Positions 24,322 to 64,000 of a stretch of DNA of 64,000 nucleotides are shown here, in pieces. Every line of letters begins with the position of its first letter. Position 1 is the first letter of the stretch. The notes below the pieces were generated by a model. That model ran no database searches. It saw nothing but the letters and a program-made list of their open reading frames with translations, and had not been told where the DNA came from. This DNA is from Eimeria praecox (lineage: Eukaryota). The position numbers and the translations under genes are program-made. The DNA lies in contig OY986946.1 of the NCBI GenBank assembly GCA_963920595.1, positions 8,990,001 to 9,054,000 of the forward strand, read 5' to 3'.

Positions 24322-24322
<1 letters not shown>

Positions 24323-42156: not shown

Positions 42157-42228
42157 TATCCCAACCAGGAATTGAACCTGGGTTTACACGGCCACAACGT
42201 GTTGTCCTAACCTCTAGACGATTCGGAC
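42157..42228 (-). pseudogene. Degenerate tRNA-His(GUG) at the array edge
   Basis: The 3' acceptor strand reads TTGGGAT instead of TTCGGAC, giving a G1.U72 wobble and a G5-G68 mismatch. Confidence 0.75.
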
Positions 42229-42475
42229 CAGTGGCCCACCAGCACAGCCCAAGCTGCGTGGCGCCACAAGCAAGCAGTCCGCTGCGGCGAGTAGGGCCAG
42301 GCGTGGATTGCACACAGTAGACGGAGAGGGCTGTTGTACGGAGGCAAACAGACGTGAGACGGTGTGTGTTGAAGACGCATTTGGCAACAGCATGCGTGCA
42401 AGGATGGGGTCCAACTGTACTCGGGAAGATAGCAAGGTGTCTGGAAGGCGTGTGTGGTGAGGGGTGTGACTGTTG

Positions 42476-42547
42476 GTCCGAATCGTCTAGAGGTTAGGAC
42501 AACACGTTGTGGCCGTGTAAACCCAGGTTCAATTCCTGGTTCGGACA
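42476..42547 (+). tRNA. tRNA-His(GUG), array copy (A57)
   Basis: 72-nt cloverleaf GTCCGAATCG...GTG...GGTTCAATTCCTGGTTCGGACA. Confidence 0.93.
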
Positions 42548-42568
42548 CATTGGCGCGAGGCGAAACCG

Positions 42569-42574
42569 TTTTTT
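42569..42574 (+). terminator. Pol III oligo-T terminator (T6) of the plus-strand array tRNA, recurring every 862 bp
   Basis: TTTTTT lies 21 nt after A73. Confidence 0.85.
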
Positions 42575-43018
42575 GCATTCCTCCTTGTCTCACTGGTGTG
42601 TGCAGTGTGGGCCAAACCACTGGCCGGTCCAGACCACTGCGCTCGACGTCAAGAGGTGCAGTCTTATGCAGACAGGCGTCTCTGGCATTGTTTCTTTTGC
42701 ACCGATTGTAATGGCGATAGGTTTGACGAGATTGTGCATTGGATTGGTTGTGATGGCTTTAGTGGAATTTGTGTGAGGCTTAGAGGGGACAGCGGAGTTT
42801 TGTGTGCATGGCTTGCTGGTGCACTTGGGAGAGGGTAGTGGGGGGGCTTTGAAGAGGCGAAGAGTACCGAATCTGCTTTATTTGCATGCTTTGTGTATGG
42901 GTATGTTTCACACATGTGTATAAGGTATGTATTGAGGGATGTGGGAATGCGTTTTCGTGTTAGTAGGTTTTACGTTGGTGTGGTAAGAGACAGAACGTTG
43001 CAGAGGGAGGGGGACAAG

Positions 43019-43090
43019 TGTCCGAACCAGGAATTGAACCTGGGTTTACACGGCCACAACGTGTTGTCCTAACCTCTAGACGATTCGGAC
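43019..43090 (-). tRNA. tRNA-His(GUG), array copy
   Basis: Same cloverleaf, inverted. Confidence 0.93.
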
Positions 43091-43337
43091 CAGTGGCCCA
43101 CCAGCACAGCCCAAGCTGCGTGGCGCCACAAGCAAGCAGTCCGCTGCGGCGAGTAGGGCCAGGCGTGGATTGCACACAGTAGACGGAGAGGGCTGTTGTA
43201 CGGAGGCAAACAGACGTGAGACGGTGTGTGTTGAAGACGCATTTGGCAACAGCATGCGTGCAAGGATGGGGTCCAACTGTACTCGGGAAGATAGCAAGGT
43301 GTCTGGAAGGCGTGTGTGGTGAGGGGTGTGACCGTTG

Positions 43338-43409
43338 GTCCGAATCGTCTAGAGGTTAGGACAACACGTTGTGGCCGTGTAAACCCAGGTTCAATTCCTG
43401 GTTCGGACA
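43338..43409 (+). tRNA. tRNA-His(GUG), array copy
   Basis: Same cloverleaf. Confidence 0.93.
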
Positions 43410-43880
43410 CATTGGCGAGAGGGGAAACCGTTTTTTGCATCCCTCCTTGTCTCACTGGTGTGTGCAGTGTGGGCCAAACCACTGGCCGGTCCAGACCACT
43501 GCGCTCGACGTCAAGAGGTGCAGTCTTATGCAGACAGGCGTCTCTGGCATTGTTTCTTTTGCACCGATTGTAATGGCGATAGGTTTGACGAGATTGTGCA
43601 TTGGATTGGTTGTGATGGCTTTAGTGGAATTTGTGTGAGGCTTAGAGGGGACAGCGGAGTTTTGTGTGCATGGCTTGCTGGTGCACTTGGGAGAGGGTAG
43701 TGGGGGGGCTTTGAAGAGGCGAAGAGTACCGAATCTGCTTTATTTGCATGCTTTGTGTATGGGTATGTTTCACACATGTGTATAAGGTATGTATTGAGGG
43801 ATGTGGGAATGCGTTTTAGTGTTAGAAGGTTTTAAGTTGATGTGGTAAGAGACAGAACGTTGCAGAGGGAGGGGGACAAG

Positions 43881-43952
43881 TGTCCGAACCAGGAATTGAA
43901 CCTGGGTTTACACGGCCACAACGTGTTGTCCTAACCTCTAGACGATTCGGAC
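43881..43952 (-). tRNA. tRNA-His(GUG), array copy
   Basis: Same cloverleaf. Confidence 0.93.
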
Positions 43953-44199
43953 CAGTGGCCCACCAGCACAGCCCCAGCTGCGTGGCGCCACAAGCAAGCA
44001 GTCCGCTGCGGCGAGTAGGGCCAGGCGTGGATTGCACACAGTAGACGGAGAGGGCTGTTGTACGGAGGCAAGCAGACGTGAGACGGTGTGTGTTAAAGAC
44101 GCATTTGGCAACAGCATGCGTGCAAGGATGGGGTCCAACTGTACTCGGGAAGATAGCAAGGTGTCTGGAAGGCGTGTGTGGTGAGGGGTGTGACTGTTG

Positions 44200-44271
44200 G
44201 TCCGAATCGTCTAGAGGTTAGGACAACACGTTGTGGCCGTGTAAACCCAGGTTCAATTCCTGGTTCGGACA
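44200..44271 (+). tRNA. tRNA-His(GUG), array copy
   Basis: Same cloverleaf. Confidence 0.93.
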
Positions 44272-44742
44272 CATTGGCGCGAGGCGAAACCGTTTTTTGC
44301 ATTCCTCCTTGTCTCACTGGTGTGTGCAGTGTGGGCCAAACCACTGGCCGGTCCAGACCACTGCGCTCGACGTCAAGAGGTGCAGTCTTATGCAGACAGG
44401 CGTCTCTGGCATTGTTTCTTTTGCACCGATTGTAATGGCGATAGGTTTGACGAGATTGTGCATTGGATTGGTTGTGATGGCTTTAGTGGAATTTGTGTGA
44501 GGCTTAGAGGGGACAGCGGAGTTTTGTGTGCATGGCTTGCTGGTGCACTTGGGAGAGGGTAGTGGGGGGGCTTTGAAGAGGCGAAGAGTACCAAATCTGC
44601 TTTATTTGCATGCTTTGTGTATGGGTATGTTTCACACATGTGTATAAGGTATGTATTGAGGGATGTGGGAATGCGTTTTAGTGTTAGTAGGTTTTAAGTT
44701 GGTGTGGTAAGAGACAGAACGTTGCAGAGGGAGGGGGACAAG

Positions 44743-44814
44743 TGTCCGAACCAGGAATTGAACCTGGGTTTACACGGCCACAACGTGTTGTCCTAACCTC
44801 TAGACGATTCGGAC
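44743..44814 (-). tRNA. tRNA-His(GUG), array copy
   Basis: Same cloverleaf. Confidence 0.93.
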
Positions 44815-45061
44815 CAGTGGCCCACCAGCACAGCCCAAGCTGCGTGGCGCCACAAGCAAGCAGTCCGCTGCGGCGAGTAGGGCCAGGCGTGGATTGCACA
44901 CAGTAGACGGAGAGGGCTGTTGTACGGAGGCAAACAGACGTGAGACGGTGTGTGTTGAAGACGCATTTGGCAACAGCATGCGTGCAAGGATGGGGTCCAA
45001 CTGTACTCGGGAAGATAGCAAGGTGTCTGGAAGGCGTGTGTGGTGAGGGGTGTGACTGTTG

Positions 45062-45133
45062 GTCCGAATCGTCTAGAGGTTAGGACAACACGTTGTGGCC
45101 GTGTAAACCCAGGTTCAATTCCTGGTTCGGACA
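45062..45133 (+). tRNA. tRNA-His(GUG), array copy
   Basis: Same cloverleaf. Confidence 0.93.
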
Positions 45134-45604
45134 CATTGGCGAGAGGGGAAACCGTTTTTTGCATCCCTCCTTGTCTCACTGGTGTGTGCAGTGTGGGCCA
45201 AACCACTGGCCGGTCCAGACCACTGCGCTCGACGTCAAGAGGTGCAGTCTTATGCAGACAGGCGTCTCTGGCATTGTTTCTTTTGCACCGATTGTAATGG
45301 CGATAGGTTTGACGAGATTGTGCATTGGATTGGTTGTGATGGCTTTAGTGGAATTTGTGTGAGGCTTAGAGGGGACAGCGGAGTTTTGTGTGCATGGCTT
45401 GCTGGTGCACTTGGGAGAGGGTAGTGGGGGGGCTTTGAAGAGGCGAAGAGTACCGAATCTGCTTTATTTGCATGCTTTGTGTATGGGTATGTTTCACACA
45501 TGTGTATAAGGTATGTATTGAGGGATGTGGGAATGCGTTTTAGTGTTAGAAGGTTTTAAGTTGATGTGGTAAGAGACAGAACGTTGCAGAGGGAGGGGGA
45601 CAAG

Positions 45605-45676
45605 TGTCCGAACCAGGAATTGAACCTGGGTTTACACGGCCACAACGTGTTGTCCTAACCTCTAGACGATTCGGAC
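45605..45676 (-). tRNA. tRNA-His(GUG), array copy
   Basis: Same cloverleaf. Confidence 0.93.
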
Positions 45677-45923
45677 CAGTGGCCCACCAGCACAGCCCAA
45701 GCTGCGTGGCGCCACAAGCAAGCAGTCCGCTGCGGCGAGTAGGGCCAGGCGTGGATTGCACACAGTAGACGGAGAGGGCTGTTGTACGGAGGCAAACAGA
45801 CGTGAGACGGTGTGTGTTGAAGACGCATTTGGCAACAGCATGCGTGCAAGGATGGGGTCCAACTGTACTCGGGAAGATAGCAAGGTGTCTGGAAGGCGTG
45901 TGTGGTGAGGGGTGTGACTGTTG

Positions 45924-45995
45924 GTCCGAATCGTCTAGAGGTTAGGACAACACGTTGTGGCCGTGTAAACCCAGGTTCAATTCCTGGTTCGGACA
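45924..45995 (+). tRNA. tRNA-His(GUG), array copy
   Basis: Same cloverleaf. Confidence 0.93.
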
Positions 45996-46466
45996 CATTG
46001 GCGCGAGGCGAAACCGTTTTTTGCATTCCTCCTTGTCTCACTGGTGTGTGCAGTGTGGGCCAAACCACTGGCCGGTCCAGACCACTGCGCTCGACGTCAA
46101 GAGGTGCAGTCTTATGCAGACAGGCGTCTCTGGCATTGTTTCTTTTGCACCGATTGTAATGGCGATAGGTTTGACGAGATTGTGCATTGGATTGGTTGTG
46201 ATGGCTTTAGTGGAATTTGTGTGAGGCTTAGAGGGGACAGCGGAGTTTTGTGTGCATGGCTTGCTGGTGCACTTGGGAGAGGGTAGTGGGGGGGCTTTGA
46301 AGTGGCGAAGAGTACCAAATCTGCTTTATTTGCATGCTTTGTGTATGGGTATGTTTCACACATGTGTATAAGGTATGTATTGAGGGATGTGGGAATGCGT
46401 TTTAGTGTTAGAAGGTTTTAAGTTGATGTGGTAAGAGACAGAACGTTGCAGAGGGAGGGGGACAAG

Positions 46467-46538
46467 TGTCCGAACCAGGAATTGAACCTGGGTTTACACG
46501 GCCACAACGTGTTGTCCTAACCTCTAGACGATTCGGAC
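46467..46538 (-). tRNA. tRNA-His(GUG), array copy
   Basis: Same cloverleaf. Confidence 0.93.
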
Positions 46539-46785
46539 CAGTGGCCCACCAGCACAGCCCCAGCTGCGTGGCGCCACAAGCAAGCAGTCCGCTGCGGCGA
46601 GTAGGGCCAGGCGTGGATTGCACACAGTAGACGGAGAGGGCTGTTGTACGGAGGCAAGCAGACGTGAGACGGTGTGTGTTGAAGACGCATTTGGCAACAG
46701 CATGCGTGCAAGGATGGGGTCCAACTGTACTCGGGAAGATAGCAAGGTGTCTGGAAGGCGTGTGTGGTGAGGGGTGTGACTGTTG

Positions 46786-46857
46786 GTCCGAATCGTCTAG
46801 AGGTTAGGACAACACGTTGTGGCCGTGTAAACCCAGGTTCAATTCCTGGTTCGGACA
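46786..46857 (+). tRNA. tRNA-His(GUG), array copy
   Basis: Same cloverleaf. Confidence 0.93.
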
Positions 46858-47328
46858 CATTGGCGAGAGGGGAAACCGTTTTTTGCATCCCTCCTTGTCT
46901 CACTGGTGTGTGCAGTGTGGGCCAAACCACTGGCCGGTCCAGACCACTGCGCTCGACGTCAAGAGGTGCAGTCTTATGCAGACAGGCGTCTCTGGCATTG
47001 TTTCTTTTGCACCGATTGTAATGGCGATAGGTTTGACGAGATTGTGCATTGGATTGGTTGTGATGGCTTTAGTGGAATTTGTGTGAGGCTTAGAGGGGAC
47101 AGCGGAGTTTTGTGTGCATGGCTTGCTGGTGCACTTGGGAGAGGGTAGTGGGGGGGCTTTGAAGAGGCGAAGAGTACCGAATCTGCTTTATTTGCATGCT
47201 TTGTGTATGGGTATGTTTCACACATGTGTATAAGGTATGTATTGAGGGATGTGGGAATGCGTTTTAGTGTTAGAAGGTTTTAAGTTGATGTGGTAAGAGA
47301 CAGAACGTTGCAGAGGGAGGGGGACAAG

Positions 47329-47400
47329 TGTCCGAACCAGGAATTGAACCTGGGTTTACACGGCCACAACGTGTTGTCCTAACCTCTAGACGATTCGGAC
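47329..47400 (-). tRNA. tRNA-His(GUG), array copy
   Basis: Same cloverleaf. Confidence 0.93.
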
Positions 47401-47647
47401 CAGTGGCCCACCAGCACAGCCCAAGCTGCGTGGCGCCACAAGCAAGCAGTCCGCTGCGGCGAGTAGGGCCAGGCGTGGATTGCACACAGTAGATCGAGAG
47501 GGCTGTTGTACGGAGGCAAACAGACGTGAGACGGTGTGTGTTGAAGACGCATTTGGCAACAGCATGCGTGCAAGGATGGGGTCCAACTGTACTCGGGAAG
47601 ATAGCAAGGTGTCTGGAAGGCGTGTGTGGTGAGGGGTGTGACTGTTG

Positions 47648-47719
47648 GTCCGAATCGTCTAGAGGTTAGGACAACACGTTGTGGCCGTGTAAACCCAGGT
47701 TCAATTCCTGGTTCGGACA
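47648..47719 (+). tRNA. tRNA-His(GUG), array copy
   Basis: Same cloverleaf. Confidence 0.93.
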
Positions 47720-48190
47720 CATTGGCGCGAGGCGAAACCGTTTTTTGCATTCCTCCTTGTCTCACTGGTGTGTGCAGTGTGGGCCAAACCACTGGCCGGT
47801 CCAGACCACTGCGCTCGACGTCAAGAGGTGCAGTCTTATGCAGACAGGCGTCTCTGGCATTGTTTCTTTTGCACCGATTGTAATGGCGATAGGTTTGACG
47901 AGATTGTGCATTGGATTGGTTGTGATGGCTTTAGTGGAATTTGTGTGAGGCTTAGAGGGGACAGCGGAGTTTTGTGTGCATGGCTTGCTGGTGCACTTGG
48001 GAGAGGGTAGTGGGGGGGCTTTGAAGTGGCGAAGAGTACCAAATCTGCTTTATTTGCATGCTTTGTGTATGGGTATGTTTCACACATGTGTATAAGGTAT
48101 GTATTGAGGGATGTGGGAATGCGTTTTAGTGTTAGAAGGTTTTAAGTTGATGTGGTAAGAGACAGAACGTTGCAGAGGGAGGGGGACAAG

Positions 48191-48262
48191 TGTCCGAACC
48201 AGGAATTGAACCTGGGTTTACACGGCCACAACGTGTTGTCCTAACCTCTAGACGATTCGGAC
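48191..48262 (-). tRNA. tRNA-His(GUG), array copy
   Basis: Same cloverleaf. Confidence 0.93.
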
Positions 48263-48509
48263 CAGTGGCCCACCAGCACAGCCCCAGCTGCGTGGCGCCA
48301 CAAGCAAGCAGTCCGCTGCGGCGAGTAGGGCCAGGCGTGGATTGCACACAGTAGACGGAGAGGGCTGTTGTACGGAGGCAAGCAGACGTGAGACGGTGTG
48401 TGTTAAAGACGCATTTGGCAACAGCATGCGTGCAAGGATGGGGTCCAACTGTACTCGGGAAGATAGCAAGGTGTCTGGAAGGCGTGTGTGGTGAGGGGTG
48501 TGACTGTTG

Positions 48510-48581
48510 GTCCGAATCGTCTAGAGGTTAGGACAACACGTTGTGGCCGTGTAAACCCAGGTTCAATTCCTGGTTCGGACA
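48510..48581 (+). tRNA. tRNA-His(GUG), array copy
   Basis: Same cloverleaf. Confidence 0.93.
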
Positions 48582-49052
48582 CATTGGCGCGAGGCGAAAC
48601 CGTTTTTTGCATTCCTCCTTGTCTCACTGGTGTGTGCAGTGTGGGCCAAACCACTGGGCGGTCCAGACCACTGCGCTCCACGTCAAGAGGTGCAGTCTTA
48701 TGCAGACAGGCGTCTCTGGCATTGTTTCTTTTGCACCGATTGTAATGGCGATAGGTTTGACGAGATTGTGCATTGGATTGGTTGTGATGGCTTTAGTGGA
48801 ATTTGTGTGAGGCTTAGAGGGGACAGCGGAGTTTTGTGTGCATGGCTTGCTGGTGCACTTGGGAGAGGGTAGTGGGGGGGCTTTGAAGAGGCGAAGAGTA
48901 CCGAATCTGCTTTATTTGCATGCTTTGTGTATGGGTATGTTTCACACATGTGTATAAGGTATGTATTGAGGGATGTGGGAATGCGTTTTAGTGTTAGAAG
49001 GTTTTAAGTTGATGTGGTAAGAGACAGAACGTTGCAGAGGGAGGGGGACAAG

Positions 49053-49124
49053 TGTCCGAACCAGGAATTGAACCTGGGTTTACACGGCCACAACGTGTTG
49101 TCCTAACCTCTAGACGATTCGGAC
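49053..49124 (-). tRNA. tRNA-His(GUG), array copy
   Basis: Same cloverleaf. Confidence 0.93.
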
Positions 49125-49371
49125 CAGTGGCCCACCAGCACAGCCCCAGCTGCGTGGCGCCACAAGCAAGCAGTCCGCTGCGGCGAGTAGGGCCAGGCGT
49201 GGATTGCACACAGTAGACGGAGAGGGCTGTTGTACGGAGGCAAACAGACGTGAGACGGTGTGTGTTAAAGACGCATTTGGCAACAGCATGCGTGCAAGGA
49301 TGGGGTCCAACTGTACTCGGGAAGATAGCAAGGTGTCTGGAAGGCGTGTGTGGTGAGGGGTGTGACTGTTG

Positions 49372-49443
49372 GTCCGAATCGTCTAGAGGTTAGGACAACA
49401 CGTTGTGGCCGTGTAAACCCAGGTTCAATTCCTGGTTCGGACA
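49372..49443 (+). tRNA. tRNA-His(GUG), array copy
   Basis: Same cloverleaf. Confidence 0.93.
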
Positions 49444-49914
49444 CATTGGCGCGAGGCGAAACCGTTTTTTGCATTCCTCCTTGTCTCACTGGTGTGTGCA
49501 GTGTGGGCCAAACCACTGGCCGGTCCAGACCACTGCGCTCGACGTCAAGAGGTGCAGTCTTATGCAGACAGGCGTCTCTGGCATTGTTTCTTTTGCACCG
49601 ATTGTAATGGCGATAGGTTTGACGAGATTGTGCATTGGATTGGTTGTGATGGCTTTAGTGGAATTTGTGTGAGGCTTAGAGGGGACAGCGGAGTTTTGTG
49701 TGCATGGCTTGCTGGTGCACTTGGGAGAGGGTAGTGGGGGGGCTTTGAAGAGGCGAAGAGTACCAAATCTGCTTTATGTGCATGCTTTGTGTATGGGTAT
49801 GTTTCACACATGTGTATAAGGTATGTATTGAGGGATGTGGGAATGCGTTTTAGTGTTAGTAGGTTTTAAGTTGGTGTGGTAAGAGACAGAACGTTGCAGA
49901 GGGAGGGGGACAAG

Positions 49915-49986
49915 TGTCCGAACCAGGAATTGAACCTGGGTTTACACGGCCACAACGTGTTGTCCTAACCTCTAGACGATTCGGAC
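49915..49986 (-). tRNA. tRNA-His(GUG), array copy
   Basis: Same cloverleaf. Confidence 0.93.
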
Positions 49987-50233
49987 CAGTGGCCCACCAG
50001 CACAGCCCAAGCTGCGTGGCGCCACAAGCAAGCAGTCCGCTGCGGCGAGTAGGGCCAGGCGTGGATTGCACACAGTAGACGGAGAGGGCTGTTGTACGGA
50101 GGCAAACAGACGTGAGACGGTGTGTGTTGAAGACGCATTTGGCAACAGCATGCGTGCAAGGATGGGGTCCAACTGTACTCGGGAAGATAGCAAGGTGTCT
50201 GGAAGGCGTGTGTGGTGAGGGGTGTGACCGTTG

Positions 50234-50305
50234 GTCCGAATCGTCTAGAGGTTAGGACAACACGTTGTGGCCGTGTAAACCCAGGTTCAATTCCTGGTTC
50301 GGACA
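50234..50305 (+). tRNA. tRNA-His(GUG), array copy
   Basis: Same cloverleaf. Confidence 0.93.
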
Positions 50306-50776
50306 CATTGGCGAGAGGGGAAACCGTTTTTTGCATCCCTCCTTGTCTCACTGGTGTGTGCAGTGTGGGCCAAACCACTGGCCGGTCCAGACCACTGCGC
50401 TCGACGTCAAGAGGTGCAGTCTTATGCAGACAGGCGTCTCTGGCATTGTTTCTTTTGCACCGATTGTAATGGCGATAGGTTTGACGAGATTGTGCATTGG
50501 ATTGGTTGTGATGGCTTTAGTGGAATTTGTGTGAGGCTTAGAGGGGACAGCGGAGTTTTGTGTGCATGGCTTGCTGGTGCACTTGGGAGAGGGTAGTGGG
50601 GGGGCTTTGAAGAGGCGAAGAGTACCGAATCTGCTTTATTTGCATGCTTTGTGTATGGGTATGTTTCACACATGTGTATAAGGTATGTATTGAGGGATGT
50701 GGGAATGCGTTTTAGTGTTAGAAGGTTTTAAGTTGATGTGGTAAGAGACAGAACGTTGCAGAGGGAGGGGGACAAG

Positions 50777-50848
50777 TGTCCGAACCAGGAATTGAACCTG
50801 GGTTTACACGGCCACAACGTGTTGTCCTAACCTCTAGACGATTCGGAC
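50777..50848 (-). tRNA. tRNA-His(GUG), array copy
   Basis: Same cloverleaf. Confidence 0.93.
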
Positions 50849-51095
50849 CAGTGGCCCACCAGCACAGCCCCAGCTGCGTGGCGCCACAAGCAAGCAGTCC
50901 GCTGCGGCGAGTAGGGCCAGGCGTGGATTGCACACAGTAGACGGAGAGGGCTGTTGTACGGAGGCAAGCAGACGTGAGACGGTGTGTGTTAAAGACGCAT
51001 TTGGCAACAGCATGCGTGCAAGGATGGGGTCCAACTGTACTCGGGAAGATAGCAAGGTGTCTGGAAGGCGTGTGTGGTGAGGGGTGTGACTGTTG

Positions 51096-51167
51096 GTCCG
51101 AATCGTCTAGAGGTTAGGACAACACGTTGTGGCCGTGTAAACCCAGGTTCAATTCCTGGTTCGGACA
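51096..51167 (+). tRNA. tRNA-His(GUG), array copy
   Basis: Same cloverleaf. Confidence 0.93.
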
Positions 51168-51638
51168 CATTGGCGCGAGGCGAAACCGTTTTTTGCATTC
51201 CTCCTTGTCTCACTGGTGTGTGCAGTGTGGGCCAAACCACTGGCCGGTCCAGACCACTGCGCTCGACGTCAAGAGGTGCAGTCTTATGCAGACAGGCGTC
51301 TCTGGCATTGTTTCTTTTGCACCGATTGTAATGGCGATAGGTTTGACGAGATTGTGCATTGGATTGGTTGTGATGGCTTTAGTGGAATTTGTGTGAGGCT
51401 TAGAGGGGACAGCGGAGTTTTGTGTGCATGGCTTGCTGGTGCACTTGGGAGAGGGTAGTGGGGGGGCTTTGAAGAGGCGAAGAGTACCAAATCTGCTTTA
51501 TTTGCATGCTTTGTGTATGGGTATGTTTCACACATGTGTATAAGGTATGTATTGAGGGATGTGGGAATGCGTTTTAGTGTTAGTAGGTTTTAAGTTGGTG
51601 TGGTAAGAGACAGAACGTTGCAGAGGGAGGGGGACAAG

Positions 51639-54296: not shown

Positions 54297-54543
54297 CAGT
54301 GGCCCACCAGCACAGCCCCAGCTGCGTGGCGCCACAAGCAAGCAGTCCGCTGCGGCGAGTAGGGCCAGGCGTGGATTGCACACAGTAGACGGAGAGGGCT
54401 GTTGTACGGAGGCAAACAGACGTGAGACGGTGTGTGTTAAAGACGCATTTGGCAACAGCATGCGTGCAAGGATGGGGTCCAACTGTACTCGGGAAGATAG
54501 CAAGGTGTCTGGAAGGCGTGTGTGGTGAGGGGTGTGACTGTTG

Positions 54544-54615
54544 GTCCGAATCGTCTAGAGGTTAGGACAACACGTTGTGGCCGTGTAAACCCAGGTTCAA
54601 TTCCTGGTTCGGACA
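54544..54615 (+). tRNA. tRNA-His(GUG), array copy
   Basis: Same cloverleaf. Confidence 0.93.
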
Positions 54616-55086
54616 CATTGGCGCGAGGCGAAACCGTTTTTTGCATTCCTCCTTGTCTCACTGGTGTGTGCAGTGTGGGCCAAACCACTGGCCGGTCCAG
54701 ACCACTGCGCTCGACGTCAAGAGGTGCAGTCTTATGCAGACAGGCGTCTCTGGCATTGTTTCTTTTGCACCGATTGTAATGGCGATAGGTTTGACGAGAT
54801 TGTGCATTGGATTGGTTGTGATGGCTTTAGTGGAATTTGTGTGAGGCTTAGAGGGGACAGCGGAGTTTTGTGTGCATGGCTTGCTGGTGCACTTGGGAGA
54901 GGGTAGTGGGGGGGCTTTGAAGAGGCGAAGAGTACCGAATCTGCTTTATTTGCATGCTTTGTGTATGGGTATGTTTCACACATGTGTATAAGGTATGTAT
55001 TGAGGGATGTGGGAATGCGTTTTAGTGTTAGTAGGTTTTACGTTGGTGTGGTAAGAGACAGAACGTTGCAGAGGGAGGGGGACAAG

Positions 55087-55158
55087 TGTCCGAACCAGGA
55101 ATTGAACCTGGGTTTACACGGCCACAACGTGCTGTCCTAACCTCTAGACGATTCGGAC
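55087..55158 (-). tRNA. tRNA-His(GUG), array copy, A27G variant
   Basis: Cloverleaf with a G27.U43 wobble. Confidence 0.9.
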
Positions 55159-55405
55159 CAGTGGCCCACCAGCACAGCCCCAGCTGCGTGGCGCCACAAG
55201 CAAGCAGTCCGCTGCGGCGAGTAGGGCCAGGCGTGGATTGCACACAGTAGACGGAGAGGGCTGTTGTACGGAGGCAAGCAGACGTGAGACGGTGTGTGTT
55301 GAAGACGCATTTGGCAACAGCATGCGTGCAAGGATGGGGTCCAACTGTACTCGGGAAGATAGCAAGGTGTCTGGAAGGCGTGTGTGGTGAGGGGTGTGAC
55401 TGTTG

Positions 55406-55477
55406 GTCCGAATCGTCTAGAGGTTAGGACAGCACGTTGTGGCCGTGTAAACCCAGGTTCAATTCCTGGTTCGGACA
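55406..55477 (+). tRNA. tRNA-His(GUG), array copy, A27G variant
   Basis: Cloverleaf with a G27.U43 wobble (G at 55432). Confidence 0.9.
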
Positions 55478-55948
55478 CATTGGCGAGAGGGGAAACCGTT
55501 TTTTGCATTCCTCCTTGTCTCACTGGTGTGTGCAGTGTGGGCCAAACCACTGGCCGGTCCAGACCACTGCGCTCGACGTCAAGAGGTGCAGTCTTATGCA
55601 GACAGGCGTCTCTGGCATTGTTTCTTTTGCACCGATTGTAATGGCGATAGGTTTGACGAGATTGTGCATTGGATTGGTTGTGATGGCTTTAGTGGAATTT
55701 GTGTGAGGCTTAGAGGGGACAGCGGAGTTTTGTGTGCATGGCTTGCTGGTGCACTTGGGAGAGGGTAGTGGGGGGGCTTTGAAGAGGCGAAGAGTACCGA
55801 ATCTGCTTTATTTGCATGCTTTGTGTATGGGTATGTTTCACACATGTGTATAAGGTATGTATTGAGGGATGTGGGAATGCGTTTTAGTGTTAGTAGGTTT
55901 TACGTTGGTGTGGTAAGAGACAGAACGTTGCAGAGGGAGGGGGACAAG

Positions 55949-56020
55949 TGTCCGAACCAGGAATTGAACCTGGGTTTACACGGCCACAACGTGTTGTCCT
56001 AACCTCTAGACGATTCGGAC
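55949..56020 (-). tRNA. tRNA-His(GUG), array copy
   Basis: Same cloverleaf. Confidence 0.93.
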
Positions 56021-56267
56021 CAGTGGCCCACCAGCACAGCCCCAGCTGCGTGGCGCCACAAGCAAGCAGTCCGCTGCGGCGAGTAGGACCAGGCGTGGAT
56101 TGCACACAGTAGATCGAGAGGGCTGTTGTACGGAGGCAAGCAGACGTGAGACGGTGTGTGTTGAAGACGCACTTGGCAACAGCATGCGTGCAAGGATGGG
56201 GTCCAACTGTACTCGGGAAGATGGCAAGGTGTCTGGAAAACGTGGGTGGTGAGGGGTGTGACTGTTG

Positions 56268-56339
56268 GTCCGAATCGTCTAGAGGTTAGGACAACACGTT
56301 GTGGCCGTGTAAACCCAGGTTCAATTCCTGGTTCGGACA
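56268..56339 (+). tRNA. tRNA-His(GUG), array copy
   Basis: Same cloverleaf. Confidence 0.93.
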
Positions 56340-56810
56340 CATTGGCGAGAGGGGAAACCGTTTTTTGCATTCCTCCTTGTCTCACTGGTGTGTGCAGTGT
56401 GGGCCAAACCACTGGCCGGTCCAGACCACTGCGCTCGACGTCAAGAGGTGCAGTCTTATGCAGACAGGCGTCTCTGGCATTGTTTCTTTTGCACCGATTG
56501 TAATGGCGATAGGTTTGACGAGATTGTGCATTGGATTGGTTGTGATGGCTTTAGTGGAATTTGTGTGAGGCTTAGAGGGGACAGCGGAGTTTTGTGTGCA
56601 TGGCTTGCTGGTGCACTTGGGAGAGGGTAGTGGGGGGGCTTTGAAGTGGCGAAGAGTACCGAATCTGCTTTATTTGCATGCTTTGTGTATGGGTATGTTT
56701 CACACATGTGTATAAGGTATGTATTGAGGGATGTGGGAATGCGTTTTAGTGTTAGAAGGTTTTAAGTTGATGTGGTAAGAGACAGAACGTTGCAGAGGGA
56801 GGGGGACAAG

Positions 56811-56882
56811 TGTCCGAACCAGGAATTGAACCTGGGTTTACACGGCCACAACGTGCTGTCCTAACCTCTAGACGATTCGGAC
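56811..56882 (-). tRNA. tRNA-His(GUG), array copy, A27G variant
   Basis: Cloverleaf with a G27.U43 wobble. Confidence 0.9.
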
Positions 56883-57129
56883 CAGTGGCCCACCAGCACA
56901 GCCCAAGCTGCGTGGCGCCACAAGCAAGCAGTCCGCTGCGGCGAGTAGGGCCAGGCGTGGATTGCACACAGTAGACGGAGAGGGCTGTTGTACGGAGGCA
57001 AGCAGACGTGAGACGGTGTGTGTTGAAGACGCATTTGGCAACAGCATGCGTGCAAGGATGGGGTCCAACTGTACTCGGGAAGATAGCAAGGTGTCTGGAA
57101 GGCGTGTGTGGTGAGGGGTGTGACTGTTG

Positions 57130-57201
57130 GTCCGAATCGTCTAGAGGTTAGGACAACACGTTGTGGCCGTGTAAACCCAGGTTCAATTCCTGGTTCGGAC
57201 A
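57130..57201 (+). tRNA. tRNA-His(GUG), array copy
   Basis: Same cloverleaf. Confidence 0.93.
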
Positions 57202-57672
57202 CATTGGCGCGAGGCGAAACCGTTTTTTGCATTCCTCCTTGTCTCACTGGTGTGTGCAGTGTGGGCCAAACCACTGGCCGGTCCAGACCACTGCGCTCGA
57301 CGTCAAGAGGTGCAGTCTTATGCAGACAGGCGTCTCTGGCATTGTTTCTTTTGCACCGATTGTAATGGCGATAGGTTTGACGAGATTGTGCATTGGATTG
57401 GTTGTGATGGCTTTAGTGGAATTTGTGTGAGGCTTAGAGGGGACAGCGGAGTTTTGTGTGCATGGCTTGCTGGTGCACTTGGGAGAGGGTAGTGGGGGGG
57501 CTTTGAAGAGGCGAAGAGTACCGAATCTGCTTTATTTGCATGCTTTGTGTATGGGTATGTTTCACACATGTGTATAAGGTATGTATTGAGGGATGTGGGA
57601 ATGCGTTTTAGTGTTAGTAGGTTTTACGTTGGTGTGGTAAGAGACAGAACGTTGCAGAGGGAGGGGGACAAG

Positions 57673-57744
57673 TGTCCGAACCAGGAATTGAACCTGGGTT
57701 TACACGGCCACAACGTGTTGTCCTAACCTCTAGACGATTCGGAC
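57673..57744 (-). tRNA. tRNA-His(GUG), array copy
   Basis: Same cloverleaf. Confidence 0.93.
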
Positions 57745-57991
57745 CAGTGGCCCACCAGCACAGCCCAAGCTGCGTGGCGCCACAAGCAAGCAGTCCGCTG
57801 CGGCGAGTAGGACCAGGCGTGGATTGCACACAGTAGATCGAGAGGGCTGTTGTACGGAGGCAAGCAGACGTGAGACGGTGTGTGTTGAAGACGCATTTGG
57901 CAACAGCATGCGTGCAAGGATGGGGTCCAACTGTACTCGGGAAGATGGCAAGGTGTCTGGAAAACGTGGGTGGTGAGGGGTGTGACTGTTG

Positions 57992-58063
57992 GTCCGAATC
58001 GTCTAGAGGTTAGGACAACACGTTGTGGCCGTGTAAACCCAGGTTCAATTCCTGGTTCGGACA
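57992..58063 (+). tRNA. tRNA-His(GUG), array copy
   Basis: Same cloverleaf. Confidence 0.93.
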
Positions 58064-58534
58064 CATTGGCGAGAGGGGAAACCGTTTTTTGCATTCCTCC
58101 TTGTCTCACTGGTGTGTGCAGTGTGGGCCAAACCACTGGCCGGTCCAGACCACTGCGCTCGACGTCAAGAGGTGCAGTCTTATGCAGACAGGCGTCTCTG
58201 GCATTGTTTCTTTTGCACCGATTGTAATGGCGATAGGTTTGACGAGATTGTGCATTGGATTGGTTGTGATGGCTTTAGTGGAATTTGTGTGAGGCTTAGA
58301 GGGGACAGCGGAGTTTTGTGTGCATGGCTTGCTGGTGCACTTGGGAGAGGGTAGTGGGGGGGCTTTGAAGTGGCGAAGAGTACCGAATCTGCTTTATTTG
58401 CATGCTTTGTGTATGGGTATGTTTCACACATGTGTATAAGGTATGTATTGAGGGATGTGGGAATGCGTTTTAGTGTTAGAAGGTTTTAAGTTGATGTGGT
58501 AAGAGACAGAACGTTGCAGAGGGAGGGGGACAAG

Positions 58535-58606
58535 TGTCCGAACCAGGAATTGAACCTGGGTTTACACGGCCACAACGTGCTGTCCTAACCTCTAGACGAT
58601 TCGGAC
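58535..58606 (-). tRNA. tRNA-His(GUG), array copy, A27G variant
   Basis: Cloverleaf with a G27.U43 wobble. Confidence 0.9.
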
Positions 58607-58853
58607 CAGTGGCCCACCAGCACAGCCCCAGCTGCGTGGCGCCACAAGCAAGCAGTCCGCTGCGGCGAGTAGGGCCAGGCGTGGATTGCACACAGTAGAC
58701 GGAGAGGGCTGTTGTACGGAGGCAAGCAGACGTGAGACGGTGTGTGTTGAAGACGCATTTGGCAACAGCATGCGTGCAAGGATGGGGTCCAACTGTACTC
58801 GGGAAGATAGCAAGGTGTCTGGAAGGCGTGTGTGGTGAGGGGTGTGACTGTTG

Positions 58854-58925
58854 GTCCGAATCGTCTAGAGGTTAGGACAACACGTTGTGGCCGTGTAAAC
58901 CCAGGTTCAATTCCTGGTTCGGACA
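58854..58925 (+). tRNA. tRNA-His(GUG), array copy
   Basis: Same cloverleaf. Confidence 0.93.
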
Positions 58926-59396
58926 CATTGGCGCGAGGCGAAACCGTTTTTTGCATTCCTCCTTGTCTCACTGGTGTGTGCAGTGTGGGCCAAACCACTG
59001 GCCGGTCCAGACCACTGCGCTCGACGTCAAGAGGTGCAGTCTTATGCAGACAGGCGTCTCTGGCATTGTTTCTTTTGCACCGATTGTAATGGCGATAGGT
59101 TTGACGAGATTGTGCATTGGATTGGTTGTGATGGCTTTAGTGGAATTTGTGTGAGGCTTAGAGGGGACAGCGGAGTTTTGTGTGCATGGCTTGCTGGTGC
59201 ACTTGGGAGAGGGTAGTGGGGGGGCTTTGAAGAGGCGAAGAGTACCGAATCTGCTTTATTTGCATGCTTTGTGTATGGGTATGTTTCACACATGTGTATA
59301 AGGTATGTATTGAGGGATGTGGGAATGCGTTTTAGTGTTAGTAGGTTTTAAGTTGGTGTGGTAAGAGACAGAACGTTGCAGAGGGAGGGGGACAAG

Positions 59397-59468
59397 TGTC
59401 CGAACCAGGAATTGAACCTGGGTTTACACGGCCACAACGTGTTGTCCTAACCTCTAGACGATTCGGAC
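59397..59468 (-). tRNA. tRNA-His(GUG), array copy
   Basis: Same cloverleaf. Confidence 0.93.
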
Positions 59469-59715
59469 CAGTGGCCCACCAGCACAGCCCAAGCTGCGTG
59501 GCGCCACAAGCAAGCAGTCCGCTGCGGCGAGTAGGGCCAGGCGTGGATTGCACACAGTAGATCGAGAGGGCTGTTGTACGGAGGCAAGCAGACGTGAGAC
59601 GGTGTGTGTTGAAGACGCATTTGGCAACAGCATGCGTGCAAGGATGGGGTCCAACTGTACTCGGGAAGATGGCAAGGTGTCTGGAAAACGTGGGTGGTGA
59701 GGGGTGTGACTGTTG

Positions 59716-59787
59716 GTCCGAATCGTCTAGAGGTTAGGACAACACGTTGTGGCCGTGTAAACCCAGGTTCAATTCCTGGTTCGGACA
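59716..59787 (+). tRNA. tRNA-His(GUG), array copy
   Basis: Same cloverleaf. Confidence 0.93.
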
Positions 59788-60258
59788 CATTGGCGAGAGG
59801 GGAAACCGTTTTTTGCATTCCTCCTTGTCTCACTGGTGTGTGCAGTGTGGGCCAAACCACTGGCCGGTCCAGACCACTGCGCTCGACGTCAAGAGGTGCA
59901 GTCTTATGCAGACAGGCGTCTCTGGCATTGTTTCTTTTGCACCGATTGTAATGGCGATAGGTTTGACGAGATTGTGCATTGGATTGGTTGTGATGGCTTT
60001 AGTGGAATTTGTGTGAGGCTTAGAGGGGACAGCGGAGTTTTGTGTGCATGGCTTGCTGGTGCACTTGGGAGAGGGTAGTGGGGGGGCTTTGAAGAGGCGA
60101 AGAGTACCGAATCTGCTTTATTTGCATGCTTTGTGTATGGGTATGTTTCACACATGTGTATAAGGTATGTATTGAGGGATGTGGGAATGCGTTTTAGTGT
60201 TAGTAGGTTTTACGTTGGTGTGGTAAGAGACAGAACGTTGCAGAGGGAGGGGGACAAG

Positions 60259-60330
60259 TGTCCGAACCAGGAATTGAACCTGGGTTTACACGGCCACAAC
60301 GTGTTGTCCTAACCTCTAGACGATTCGGAC
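60259..60330 (-). tRNA. tRNA-His(GUG), array copy
   Basis: Same cloverleaf. Confidence 0.93.
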
Positions 60331-60577
60331 CAGTGGCCCACCAGCACAGCCCAAGCTGCGTGGCGCCACAAGCAAGCAGTCCGCTGCGGCGAGTAGGGCC
60401 AGGCGTGGATTGCAGACAGTAGATCGAGAGGGCTGTTGTACGGAGGCAAGCAGACGTGAGACGGTGTGTGTTGAAGACGCACTTGGCAACAGCATGCGTG
60501 CAAGGATGGGGTCCAACTGTACTCGGGAAGATGGCAAGGTGTCTGGAAAACGTGTGTGGTGAGGGGTGTGACTGTTG

Positions 60578-60649
60578 GTCCGAATCGTCTAGAGGTTAGG
60601 ACAACACGTTGTGGCCGTGTAAACCCAGGTTCAATTCCTGGTTCGGACA
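60578..60649 (+). tRNA. tRNA-His(GUG), array copy
   Basis: Same cloverleaf. Confidence 0.93.
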
Positions 60650-61120
60650 CATTGGCGCGAGGCGAAACCGTTTTTTGCATTCCTCCTTGTCTCACTGGTG
60701 TGTGCAGTGTGGGCCAAACCACTGGCCGGTCCAGACCACTGCGCTCGACGTCAAGAGGTGCAGTCTTATGCAGACAGGCGTCTCTGGCATTGTTTCTTTT
60801 GCACCGATTGTAATGGCGATAGGTTTGACGAGATTGTGCATTGGATTGGTTGTGATGGCTTTAGTGGAATTTGTGTGAGGCTTAGAGGGGACAGCGGAGT
60901 TTTGTGTGCATGGCTTGCTGGTGCACTTGGGAGAGGGTAGTGGGGGGGCTTTGAAGAGGCGAAGAGTACCGAATCTGCTTTATTTGCATGCTTTGTGTAT
61001 GGGTATGTTTCACACATGTGTATAAGGTATGTATTGAGGGATGTGGGAATGCGTTTTAGTGTTAGTAGGTTTTAAGTTGGTGTGGTAAGAGACAGAACGT
61101 TGCAGAGGGAGGGGGACAAG

Positions 61121-61192
61121 TGTCCGAACCAGGAATTGAACCTGGGTTTACACGGCCACAACGTGTTGTCCTAACCTCTAGACGATTCGGAC
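61121..61192 (-). tRNA. tRNA-His(GUG), array copy
   Basis: Same cloverleaf. Confidence 0.93.
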
Positions 61193-61439
61193 CAGTGGCC
61201 CACCAGCACAGCCCAAGCTGCGTGGCGCCACAAGCAAGCAGTCCGCTGCGGCGAGTAGGGCCAGGCGTGGATTGCACACAGTAGACGGAGAGGGCTGTTG
61301 TACGGAGGCAAACAGACGTGAGACGGTGTGTGTTGAAGACGCATTTGGCAACAGCATGCGTGCAAGGATGGGGTCCAACTGTACTCGGGAAGATGGCAAG
61401 GTGTCTGGAAAACGTGGGTGGTGAGGGGTGTGACTGTTG

Positions 61440-61511
61440 GTCCGAATCGTCTAGAGGTTAGGACAACACGTTGTGGCCGTGTAAACCCAGGTTCAATTCC
61501 TGGTTCGGACA
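61440..61511 (+). tRNA. tRNA-His(GUG), array copy
   Basis: Same cloverleaf. Confidence 0.93.
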
Positions 61512-61982
61512 CATTGGCGAGAGGGGAAACCGTTTTTTGCATTCCTCCTTGTCTCACTGGTGTGTGCAGTGTGGGCCAAACCACTGGCCGGTCCAGACCA
61601 CTGCGCTCGACGTCAAGAGGTGCAGTCTTATGCAGACAGGCGTCTCTGGCATTGTTTCTTTTGCACCGATTGTAATGGCGATAGGTTTGACGAGATTGTG
61701 CATTGGATTGGTTGTGATGGCTTTAGTGGAATTTGTGTGAGGCTTAGAGGGGACAGCGGAGTTTTGTGTGCATGGCTTGCTGGTGCACTTGGGAGAGGGT
61801 AGTGGGGGGGCTTTGAAGAGGCGAAGAGTACCGAATCTGCTTTATTTGCATGCTTTGTGTATGGGTATGTTTCACACATGTGTATAAGGTATGTATTGAG
61901 GGATGTGGGAATGCGTTTTAGTGTTAGTAGGTTTTACGTTGGTGTGGTAAGAGACAGAACGTTGCAGAGGGAGGGGGACAAG

Positions 61983-62054
61983 TGTCCGAACCAGGAATTG
62001 AACCTGGGTTTACACGGCCACAACGTGTTGTCCTAACCTCTAGACGATTCGGAC
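61983..62054 (-). tRNA. tRNA-His(GUG), array copy
   Basis: Same cloverleaf. Confidence 0.93.
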
Positions 62055-62301
62055 CAGTGGCCCACCAGCACAGCCCAAGCTGCGTGGCGCCACAAGCAAG
62101 CAGTCCGCTGCGGCGAGTAGGGCCAGGCGTGGATTGCACACAGTAGACGGAGAGGGCTGTTGTACGGAGGCAAGCAGACGTGAGACGGTGTGTGTTGAAG
62201 ACGCATTTGGCAACAGCATGCGTGCAAGGATGGGGTCCAACTGTACTCGGGAAGATAGCAAGGTGTCTGGAAGGCGTGTGTGGTGAGGGGTGTGACTGTT
62301 G

Positions 62302-62373
62302 GTCCGAATCGTCTAGAGGTTAGGACAACACGTTGTGGCCGTGTAAACCCAGGTTCAATTCCTGGTTCGGACA
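62302..62373 (+). tRNA. tRNA-His(GUG), array copy
   Basis: Same cloverleaf. Confidence 0.93.
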
Positions 62374-62844
62374 CATTGGCTCGAGGCGAAACCGTTTTTT
62401 GCATTCCTCCTTGTCTCACTGGTGTGTGCAGTGTGGGCCAAACCACTGGCCGGTCCAGACCACTGCGCTCGACGTCAAGAGGTGCAGTCTTATGCAGACA
62501 GGCGTCTCTGGCATTGTTTCTTTTGCACCGATTGTAATGGCGATAGGTTTGACGAGATTGTGCATTGGATTGGTTGTGATGGCTTTAGTGGAATTTGTGT
62601 GAGGCTTAGAGGGGACAGCGGAGTTTTGTGTGCATGGCTTGCTGGTGCACTTGGGAGAGGGTAGTGGGGGGGCTTTGAAGAGGCGAAGAGTACCGAATCT
62701 GCTTTATTTGCATGCTTTGTGTATGGGTATGTTTCACACATGTGTATAAGGTATGTATTGAGGGATGTGGGAATGCGTTTTAGTGTTAGTAGGTTTTAAG
62801 TTGGTGTGGTAAGAGACAGAACGTTGCAGAGGGAGGGGGACAAG

Positions 62845-62916
62845 TGTCCGAACCAGGAATTGAACCTGGGTTTACACGGCCACAACGTGTTGTCCTAACC
62901 TCTAGACGATTCGGAC
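62845..62916 (-). tRNA. tRNA-His(GUG), array copy
   Basis: Same cloverleaf. Confidence 0.93.
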
Positions 62917-63163
62917 CAGTGGCCCACCAGCACAGCCCAAGCTGCGTGGCGCCACAAGCAAGCAGTCCGCTGCGGCGAGTAGGGCCAGGCGTGGATTGCA
63001 CACAGTAGACGGAGAGGGCTGTTGTACGGAGGCAAACAGACGTGAGACGGTGTGTGTTGAAGACGCATTTGGCAACAGCATGCGTGCAAGGATGGGGTCC
63101 AACTGTACTCGGGAAGATAGCAAGGTGTCTGGAAAACGTGGGTGGTGAGGGGTGTGACTGTTG

Positions 63164-63235
63164 GTCCGAATCGTCTAGAGGTTAGGACAACACGTTGTGG
63201 CCGTGTAAACCCAGGTTCAATTCCTGGTTCGGACA
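63164..63235 (+). tRNA. tRNA-His(GUG), array copy
   Basis: Same cloverleaf. Confidence 0.93.
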
Positions 63236-63706
63236 CATTGGCGCGAGGCGAAACCGTTTTTTGCATTCCTCCTTGTCTCACTGGTGTGTGCAGTGTGGGC
63301 CAAACCACTGGCCGGTCCAGACCACTGCGCTCGATGTCAAGAGGTGCAGTCTTATGCAGACAGGCGTCTCTGGCATTGTTTCTTTTGCACCGATTGTAAT
63401 GGCGATAGGTTTGACGAGATTGTGCATTGGATTGGTTGTGATGGCTTTAGTGGAATTTGTGTGAGGCTTAGAGGGGACAGCGGAGTTTTGTGTGCATGGC
63501 TTGCTGGTGCACTTGGGAGAGGGTAGTGGGGGGGCTTTGAAGAGGCGAAGAGTACCGAATCTGCTTTATTTGCATGCTTTGTGTATGGGTATGTTTCACA
63601 CATGTGTATAAGGTATGTATTGAGGGATGTGGGAATGCGTTTTAGTGTTAGTAGGTTTTAAGTTGGTGTGGTAAGAGACAGAACGTTGCAGCGGGAGGGG
63701 GACAAG

Positions 63707-63778
63707 TGTCCGAACCAGGAATTGAACCTGGGTTTACACGGCCACAACGTGTTGTCCTAACCTCTAGACGATTCGGAC
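63707..63778 (-). tRNA. tRNA-His(GUG), array copy
   Basis: Same cloverleaf. Confidence 0.93.
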
Positions 63779-64000
63779 CAGTGGCCCACCAGCACAGCCC
63801 AAGCTGCGTGGCGCCACAAGCAAGCAGTCCGCTGCGGCGAGTAGGGCCAGGCGTGGATTGCACACAGTAGACGGAGAGGGCTGTTGTACGGAGGCAAACA
63901 GACGTGAGACGGTGTGTGTTGAAGACGCATTTGGCAACAGCATGCGTGCAAGGATGGGGTCCAACTGTACTCGGGAAGATAGCAAGGTGTCTCGAAGGCG

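What the first reader, a model, noticed from the sequence alone, without database searches (positions are those of the whole stretch)
42157..64000. A tandem array of over 21.8 kb built from inverted tRNA-His pairs (51 genes in view)
Seen: 862-bp units with no length variation, each holding two oppositely oriented 72-nt tRNA-His(GUG) genes (26 minus, 25 plus), continuing past the window. The spacers contain no short tandem repeats. Known: apicomplexans such as Plasmodium have near-minimal tRNA gene sets, His is a low-abundance amino acid, and tandem tRNA arrays are best known from Entamoeba, where the spacers carry STRs. I do not know of a described single-isoacceptor inverted-pair array in coccidia, but could not search. 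Inference: possible roles are stage-specific tRNA-His supply (for example His-rich oocyst-wall or gametocyte proteins), a structural chromatin element (TFIIIC/condensin loading, centromere or subtelomere), or a source of small or double-stranded RNA.
Basis: partly seen in the sequence, partly recalled or inferred. Interest (0 to 1): 0.9.

Follow-up and report, generated by a model that had tools for sequence, protein, structure and literature searches.

The report
Tandem histidine tRNA array in Eimeria
A chicken gut parasite (Eimeria praecox by its nearest protein match) carries at least 25, and likely 60 to 75, tandem copies of a back-to-back pair of histidine tRNA genes; only one gene of each pair has a normal stop signal, and the array likely serves as a mostly idle reserve of this tRNA.

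Summary
The array is real: 51 tRNA-His(GUG) genes in 862-bp, indel-free units. A flanking protein matches a record named Eimeria praecox at 100%. Contig depths in public run X3 imply about 59-76 units, including a subfamily 8-10% diverged, and a far end in single-copy DNA, so over-expansion in assembly is unlikely. A separate back-to-back His pair lies 11 kb away and a decayed copy sits at the edge. The two genes of a unit are unequal: forward copies have an invariant T6 terminator, reverse copies have no T4 within 570 nt. Units recombine heavily, probably also between the inverted arms. Tandem tRNA arrays are a known kind: Entamoeba has His-only and STR-free arrays, Arabidopsis has a tissue-gated cluster, and a tRNA cluster was noted in E. 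tenella. Ten paper searches found no description of this one, and the scan's notes hold nothing like it. Origin by concerted amplification of a local pair is well supported; function is inferred. Best reading: a stage-gated tRNA-His reserve (0.4); neutral amplification (0.3) is close. Transcription was not tested.

The parts
42156..64000 (.). Tandem array of 862-bp units, 25.3 in view, each with a divergent tRNA-His(GUG) pair; runs past the window
   Evidence: depth
43019..43090 (-). Reverse tRNA-His gene of unit 2 (example). Intact cloverleaf, G at -1. No T4 within 570 nt downstream in 25 of 26 reverse copies
43091..43337 (.). Head-to-head spacer, 247 bp, G-rich on +; not alignable to the spacer of the outlying pair
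43338..43409 (+). Forward tRNA-His gene of unit 2 (example): canonical stems, A73, B box, G at -1
43431..43436 (+). T6 Pol III terminator 22 nt behind the forward gene, invariant in 25 of 25 units
43410..43880 (.). Tail-to-tail spacer, about 470 bp, G-rich on + (spacer GC skew 0.34), with one G-quadruplex-like motif at 43689-43708
42157..42228 (-). Edge copy with two acceptor-stem substitutions (one mismatch, one G-U pair); T4 at 69 nt downstream
41931..41985 (-). Decayed tRNA-His copy, anticodon lost
   Evidence: nhmmer E=0.0015; local score 66 against 46 best elsewhere and a maximum of 60 in 40 shuffles
31071..31412 (.). Outlying divergent tRNA-His pair with a 198-bp spacer. Both genes differ from the array gene by the same single T-loop base, and both have T4/T5 runs within 30 nt
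55087..55477 (.). Unit 16: the same anticodon-stem variant (A27G, keeps a G-U pair) in both inverted arms; also in the reverse arm of units 18 and 20
42974..53761 (+). Exact 3,892-bp repeat at an 8-unit offset (42974-46865 = 49870-53761): a recent unequal exchange or a local assembly duplication
31620..33470 (+). Flanking gene, Cluap1 family; places the window in Eimeria praecox or a very close relative
33752..38300 (-). Flanking multi-exon RNA helicase gene (Helicase_C exon at 34738-34892); outer limits approximate
38885..41450 (+). Unidentified conserved multi-exon gene, the last gene before the array; 3' limit approximate
   Evidence: exons collinear in run X9; no significant Pfam hit for the 2 exons tested

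Best explanation
This is a real tandem array of a back-to-back tRNA-His gene pair that was likely amplified from a local pair and is homogenised by recombination, and its forward genes likely act as a mostly silent tRNA-His reserve that would be opened when His-rich oocyst-wall proteins are made. Shown: anatomy, recombination among units, the outlying pair and the decayed copy, and the terminator asymmetry. Estimated: 59-76 units. Inferred: arm-to-arm conversion, the reverse gene as a passenger kept intact by conversion, silencing, and stage-specific use.
For: Origin: an outlying pair has the same arrangement, one base of difference per gene and an unalignable spacer; there is also a decayed copy, a damaged edge copy and a subfamily 8-10% diverged, so His copies were born and lost here repeatedly. 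Homogenisation: 110 of 231 informative site pairs fail the four-gamete test (minimum 10 recombination events), alternate units are closer than neighbours (5.4 against 9.0 differences), and one 3,892-bp repeat is exact. Arm exchange: the only gene variant in units 2-25 is the same A27G in both arms of unit 16, and each pair is uniform within itself for the T-loop base. Competence: forward genes have all four stems, a B box, A73 and a T6 in 25 of 25; diversity is 0.0022 in genes against 0.0113 in spacers. Demand in relatives: GAM22. Precedent: the Arabidopsis Ser/Tyr cluster is silent in most tissues, active in root cap cells, and its deletion alters a Ser/Tyr/Pro-rich glycoprotein (abstract).
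Against: No RNA evidence was obtained for this organism. Gene-versus-spacer conservation inside the array is not significant (2 of 144 against 27 of 718 variable sites, p=0.11), and conversion alone could keep genes intact. His is only 21.7 per 1000 codons in E. tenella, so 3-8 genes would be proportionate, against about 118-152 here. GAM22 was not shown for E. praecox: its gene id has no row in the ortholog table searched. Half the genes lack a terminator, which is not what optimisation for output would give. Several residues (Tyr, Ser, Pro, Cys, Ala, Gln) would allow a similar story after the fact. In Entamoeba tRNA gene number does not track codon usage.
Confidence: 0.4

Rival explanations
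1. Neutral, satellite-like amplification. An inverted pair of tRNA genes is a recombination-prone site; it expanded by unequal exchange, and the genes stay intact through conversion, not through need.
For: Gene number is about 15-50 times the proportionate need. Spacers turn over completely. Reverse genes lack terminators. Recombination is heavy and a dimer period is forming. Gene conservation within the array is not significant. That inverted repeats seed amplification and that tRNA genes pause forks head-on is recalled, not from a call.
Against: The forward terminator is invariant while 4 sites within 14 nt of it vary. The one gene variant in units 2-25 keeps pairing. The same isoacceptor was duplicated here repeatedly over a long time.
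Confidence: 0.3
2. Structural element: a TFIIIC/condensin-loaded block acting as centromere, pericentromeric boundary or insulator.
For: The estimated 51-66 kb free of protein genes lies within the 15-74 kb range of putative E. tenella centromeric intergenic regions. The human 1q23.3 tRNA repeat binds CTCF (listing). A terminator is not needed for factor binding (inference).
Against: Protein genes run to within about 0.7 kb of the array. The E. tenella centromere passage names no tRNA array. Both ends appear to join single-copy DNA, which is against a telomere-like role as in Entamoeba.
Confidence: 0.15
3. Source of antisense or double-stranded RNA: Pol III starting at a reverse gene reads through 470 nt into the antisense of the next forward gene and folds back, feeding silencing of the array or of tRNA-His.
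For: The first T4 lies 571 nt or more behind 25 of 26 reverse genes and the first T5 2,720 nt or more behind all 26. The predicted 615-nt read-through folds with both tRNA arms fully paired. An Argonaute was found in each Eimeria examined.
Against: 19% of shuffled units also lack such a run, so base skew alone can explain the absence. No Dicer homologue was found in chicken coccidia other than E. tenella, though the authors allow for incomplete genomes. The fold follows trivially from the inverted repeat.
Confidence: 0.1
4. Assembly over-expansion of a few copies.
For: One 3,892-bp stretch is repeated exactly. No listed contig bridges the left junction. Run X3 may be the same strain as the window.
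Against: 21 of 25 full units are distinct. Single contigs of X3 have depth 2,288-3,773 on the unit against 47-52 on five single-copy contigs, more than the 25 units in view need.
Confidence: 0.02

Closest known systems
Entamoeba tRNA gene arrays (PMC2652664; bioRxiv 10.64898/2026.07.06.736064)
   Same: Homogeneous tandem units with tRNA genes; a His-GTG-only array in all four species columns of Table 1; arrays without complex STRs in three species; spacers not conserved between species; strand-biased spacers; copy number beyond codon demand.
   Different: There, almost all tRNA types are arrayed and the arrays sit at one chromosome end. Here one isoacceptor forms an inverted pair per unit, beside ordinary genes, apparently interstitial, in a genus with ordinary telomeres.
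Arabidopsis Ser/Tyr/Tyr (SYY) tDNA cluster (PMC12308677, abstract)
   Same: Tandem tDNA units of few isoacceptors; the best functional model for a gated reserve that serves a compositionally biased wall protein.
   Different: Its silencing, cell-specific activation and deletion phenotype are shown; nothing of the kind is shown here. The inverted single-type pair and the terminator-less partner are features of this array.
Human 1q23.3 tRNA VNTR (PMC4041453, search listing only)
   Same: Large tandem repeat carrying tRNA genes, tens of units.
   Different: 7.3-kb units that bind CTCF; proposed as a boundary element. No such binding was tested here.
tRNA cluster on E. tenella chromosome 6 (one sentence in PMC9131526)
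   Same: Clustered tRNA genes in the same genus; E. tenella has 345 annotated tRNAs (PMC8515493).
   Different: Isotype and layout are not given in the passage, and TGTTGC repeats lie between its genes, whereas the spacers here hold no STR. Whether it is the orthologous array is unknown.

Membership tests
tRNA-His gene (RF00005) | Cloverleaf with GUG anticodon, A73, internal A and B boxes | tested here: met
   All four stems pair in the majority gene; 62.2 bits; 46 of 51 array genes are identical, 4 carry A27G, 1 edge copy is damaged
tRNA-His gene (RF00005) | Oligo-T Pol III terminator shortly downstream | tested here: inconclusive
   Met for 25 of 25 forward genes and both outlying genes; not met for 25 of 26 reverse genes. 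The terminator length needed in Eimeria is not known to me
tRNA-His gene (RF00005) | Transcribed and processed | not testable with these tools
   Only contigs were offered, and no run on record as RNA held more than 0.07 of the unit's words
Tandem tRNA gene array (general kind) | Head-to-tail units with intact tRNA genes under concerted evolution | tested here: met
Entamoeba-type tRNA array | Located at a chromosome end | tested here: not met
   Genes on the left; contigs of runs X3 and X1 leave the unit at the same phase into other DNA, at single-copy depth in X3. This assumes one array, and 28 loose ends were not shown
Entamoeba-type tRNA array | Most tRNA types of the genome are arrayed | not testable with these tools
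   No genome held
Entamoeba-type tRNA array | STRs in spacers (E. histolytica and E. dispar only) | tested here: not met
   not a genus-wide feature
Gated tDNA reserve (SYY-like) | Silent in most cells, activated with demand for a biased protein | not testable with these tools
   No stage RNA or chromatin data; demand documented only in E. tenella and E. necatrix
tRNA-derived SINE | Dispersed, decayed tRNA head with a body and a tail | tested here: not met
   Genes are full length, tandem and conserved, and the spacers have no convincing match in 1-42155
Coccidian centromere | Hi-C contact point or CenH3 domain in a long intergenic region | not testable with these tools
   Only the size range is compatible

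The most novel reading that the evidence does not exclude
A self-gating tRNA reserve: the terminator-less reverse gene makes read-through antisense RNA that keeps about 60-75 forward tRNA-His genes shut, and the block opens in macrogametocytes to supply His-rich oocyst-wall proteins. It would be the first stage-gated tRNA amplification in an apicomplexan.
Probability: 0.08. Interest if true: 0.85.

Novelty: new variant of a known kind. Interest (0 to 1): 0.5.

Why it matters
At about 118-152 genes, this one array would hold roughly as many tRNA genes as the whole annotated set of Cyclospora (144). It makes an open question directly testable: are amplified tRNA genes in protists used, structural or idle? 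Array and outlying genes differ by one T-loop base, so tRNA-seq can assign output by stage. If it feeds oocyst-wall synthesis, it links tRNA dosage to transmission of a poultry parasite. Even if neutral, a repeat of about 60-75 copies with fast-evolving spacers is a candidate sensitive PCR marker, and it shows that short-read Eimeria assemblies likely undercount tRNA genes.

Tried and rejected
No whole genome was held, so genome-wide tRNA counts, chromosome position, GAM22, Thg1 and Dicer in this species were not checked. A 30-base tRNA pattern found 0 matches in metagenome, viral and prokaryote contigs. Run X9, another species whose exons are collinear at about 80-90% identity and depth 14-16, shows summed depth of 8,360-8,987 at tRNA positions; I do not count it, because contigs are summed at 80% likeness and other tRNAs can be included. 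RNA run X16 holds one 151-nt contig at depth 2 over the gene, from another habitat, and shows no transcription of this array. Spacer homology between the array and the outlying pair was rejected (200 of 300 shuffles scored as high). A terminator-like match at the left edge was not significant (21 of 300). The 183-aa frame across the unit spans both tRNA genes and was not pursued. A Yip1-like guess for the last gene came from recall and got no Pfam support. The scan's earlier notes gave nothing relevant. Not held: Ling 2007 and Kruecken 2008; either could mention tRNA repeats. Supplement file 1 of PMC4199364 was not searched, and only one supplement file of PMC9141347 was held, so the 23 tRNA-containing repeat models mentioned there could not be inspected.
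Full report
OBSERVATION. ARAGORN finds 53 tRNA genes in the window, all His(GTG): 51 in the array (26 minus, 25 plus, period 862) and 2 more at 31071-31412. The 25 full units and a 295-nt remainder align without a gap; 33 columns vary and 21 of 25 full units are distinct. TRF reports nothing after 34973. The majority gene has four paired stems, a GUG anticodon, A73 and a B box. 46 of 51 array genes are identical, four carry A27G, and the edge copy has two acceptor-stem changes. All 51, and both outlying genes, have a genomic G at -1; whether it is kept in the RNA is untested.

ORGANISM AND SURROUNDINGS. CAG and AAACCCT repeats in the left third match the description of Eimeria genomes (PMC9131526, passages). 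A Cluap1-family frame matched 3 proteins among 7,994 scored candidates; the best, P0001, is 100% identical over 96% of the query and is named Eimeria praecox by its source (tblastn). Between the outlying pair and the array lie this gene, an RNA helicase gene and an unidentified conserved gene. No genome was held.

IS IT REAL, AND HOW LONG? 20 of 24 listed runs hold part of the unit, 5 of them half of its words or more. I laid 7 of the 24. In run X3, five single-copy contigs have depth 46.8-52.1; single contigs on the unit have 2,288, 2,463 and 3,773; and a variant type, 8-10% diverged in the spacers (21 of 250 and 12 of 123 bases), has 575-870. The ratios give 59 units (head spacer, main plus variant), 67 (tail, main plus variant) or 76 (shared stretch): about 51-66 kb and 118-152 genes. 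This is an estimate from contig depth in one run that is only guessed to be DNA and may be the window's own strain. A 2,691-bp contig of X3 at depth 52 and a contig of X1 leave a unit at the same phase (815) into the same other sequence, which suggests a far end in single-copy DNA; 28 loose ends were not shown, so further ends or a second array are not excluded. No listed contig bridges the left junction.

ORIGIN AND UPKEEP. The outlying pair has the same divergent layout. Its genes differ from the array gene at one T-loop base, the same in both, while its 198-bp spacer does not align to the array's 247-bp spacer. A decayed copy lies about 170 bp left of the array (E=0.0015). Among units 2-25, 110 of 231 informative site pairs fail the four-gamete test (at least 10 recombination events), alternate units are more alike than neighbours, and 3,892 bp repeat exactly at an 8-unit offset; the last could also be a local assembly duplication. 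The only gene variant in these units is the same A27G in both arms of unit 16 and in the reverse arm of units 18 and 20. I infer conversion between the inverted arms; independent mutation at a tolerated site is the alternative. Diversity is 0.0022 in genes and 0.0113 in spacers, but 2 of 144 against 27 of 718 variable sites is not significant (p=0.11).

THE TWO GENES ARE UNEQUAL. Every forward gene (25 of 25) has T6 at +22. Behind 25 of 26 reverse genes the first T4 is 571 nt or more away, beyond the antisense of the next forward gene, and the first T5 is 2,720 nt or more behind all 26; 6 of 26 units carry a variant T4 on that strand. Both outlying genes have T4/T5 within 30 nt. The spacers are G-rich on the plus strand (skew 0.34; 1 of 58 flanking windows reaches it), and 19% of shuffled units also lack the run. 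So the absence may follow from base skew, but it is still not the anatomy of an ordinary tRNA gene. A read-through RNA would pair its two arms completely.

HOW IT MOST LIKELY WORKS. Shown: a recombining array with one fully equipped gene per unit. Inferred: amplification from a local pair, and the reverse gene as a passenger kept intact by conversion. For function I commit to a mostly silent reserve opened at the gametocyte stage (0.4). [quoted passage not shown] The Arabidopsis SYY cluster is a tested precedent (PMC12308677, abstract). Against this: His is 21.7 per 1000 codons in E. tenella (PMC11313453, table rows), proportionate to 3-8 genes. GAM22 has no row in the ortholog table of PMC4199364, so it is not shown for E. 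praecox; an 82-kDa gametocyte antigen relative does have E. praecox values, and its His/Pro-rich part is recalled, not seen. In Entamoeba gene number does not follow codon usage (PMC2652664, section 29). Neutral amplification (0.3) is nearly as good. A structural role (0.15) fits only the size of E. tenella centromeric gaps (PMC8515493, passages). A dsRNA source (0.1) is weakened by the reported lack of Dicer outside E. tenella, in a text that does not name E. praecox (PMC9353057, passages).

WHAT IS KNOWN. Entamoeba arrays include His-GTG-only units in all four species columns, lack complex STRs in three species (PMC2652664, passages and section 34) and lie at one chromosome end (bioRxiv 10.64898/2026.07.06.736064, passages). 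A human tRNA VNTR has 9-43 units (PMC4041453, listing). Coccidian tRNA sets are not minimal: 174 and 144 (PMC4851813, passages) and 345 in E. tenella, where a chromosome 6 tRNA cluster of unstated type is mentioned once. A repeat survey of 64 apicomplexan genomes set aside 23 models that contained tRNA genes, without detail (PMC9141347, passages and one supplement file). Ten searches of the open library and term look-ups in PMC11912684, PMC4199364, PMC4337577 and PMC12189739 showed no description of a tRNA-His array in Eimeria. Subscription journals, Ling 2007 and database annotations were not seen.

VERDICT. Real; a new variant of a known kind. What is distinctive is one isoacceptor, an inverted pair per unit, one gene without a terminator, an apparently interstitial position and an apicomplexan host. 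Interest 0.5: unusual and easy to test, but with close precedents and no functional evidence yet.

Noticed in passing
window 31071-31412: Outlying divergent tRNA-His pair between a possible pyroglutamyl peptidase exon (Pfam E=0.13, below cut-off) and the Cluap1 gene; its spacer is weakly self-inverted (1 of 300 shuffles scored as high).
   Followed up: partly
position -1 of all 53 genes: G at -1 in four unrelated upstream contexts (CTG or TTG at -3 to -1). The His identity base may be genome-encoded rather than added by Thg1 (the pathway is recalled).
   Followed up: no
window 40735: Runs X1 and X3 both read another base than the window: a strain difference or an assembly error, possibly in an exon.
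   Followed up: no
run X9 against window 34197-40103: Another species has collinear exons for the helicase and the next gene and high summed depth on tRNA positions; a hint that it also amplifies tRNA genes.
   Followed up: partly
runs X5 and X1 against window 43017 and 45915: Contigs carry the same tRNA-His with other flanks, one with a T4 close behind: further His loci in this or another species.
   Followed up: no
window 7000-22000 against 22000-42000: Switch from a CAG/AAACCCT repeat-rich band to a repeat-poorer band, with CpG observed/expected 0.45 against 0.68; the array lies beyond the repeat-poorer band.
   Followed up: no
window 8816-9180 and 20514-20699: A 92-copy TATC microsatellite and a 22-bp minisatellite.
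   Followed up: no
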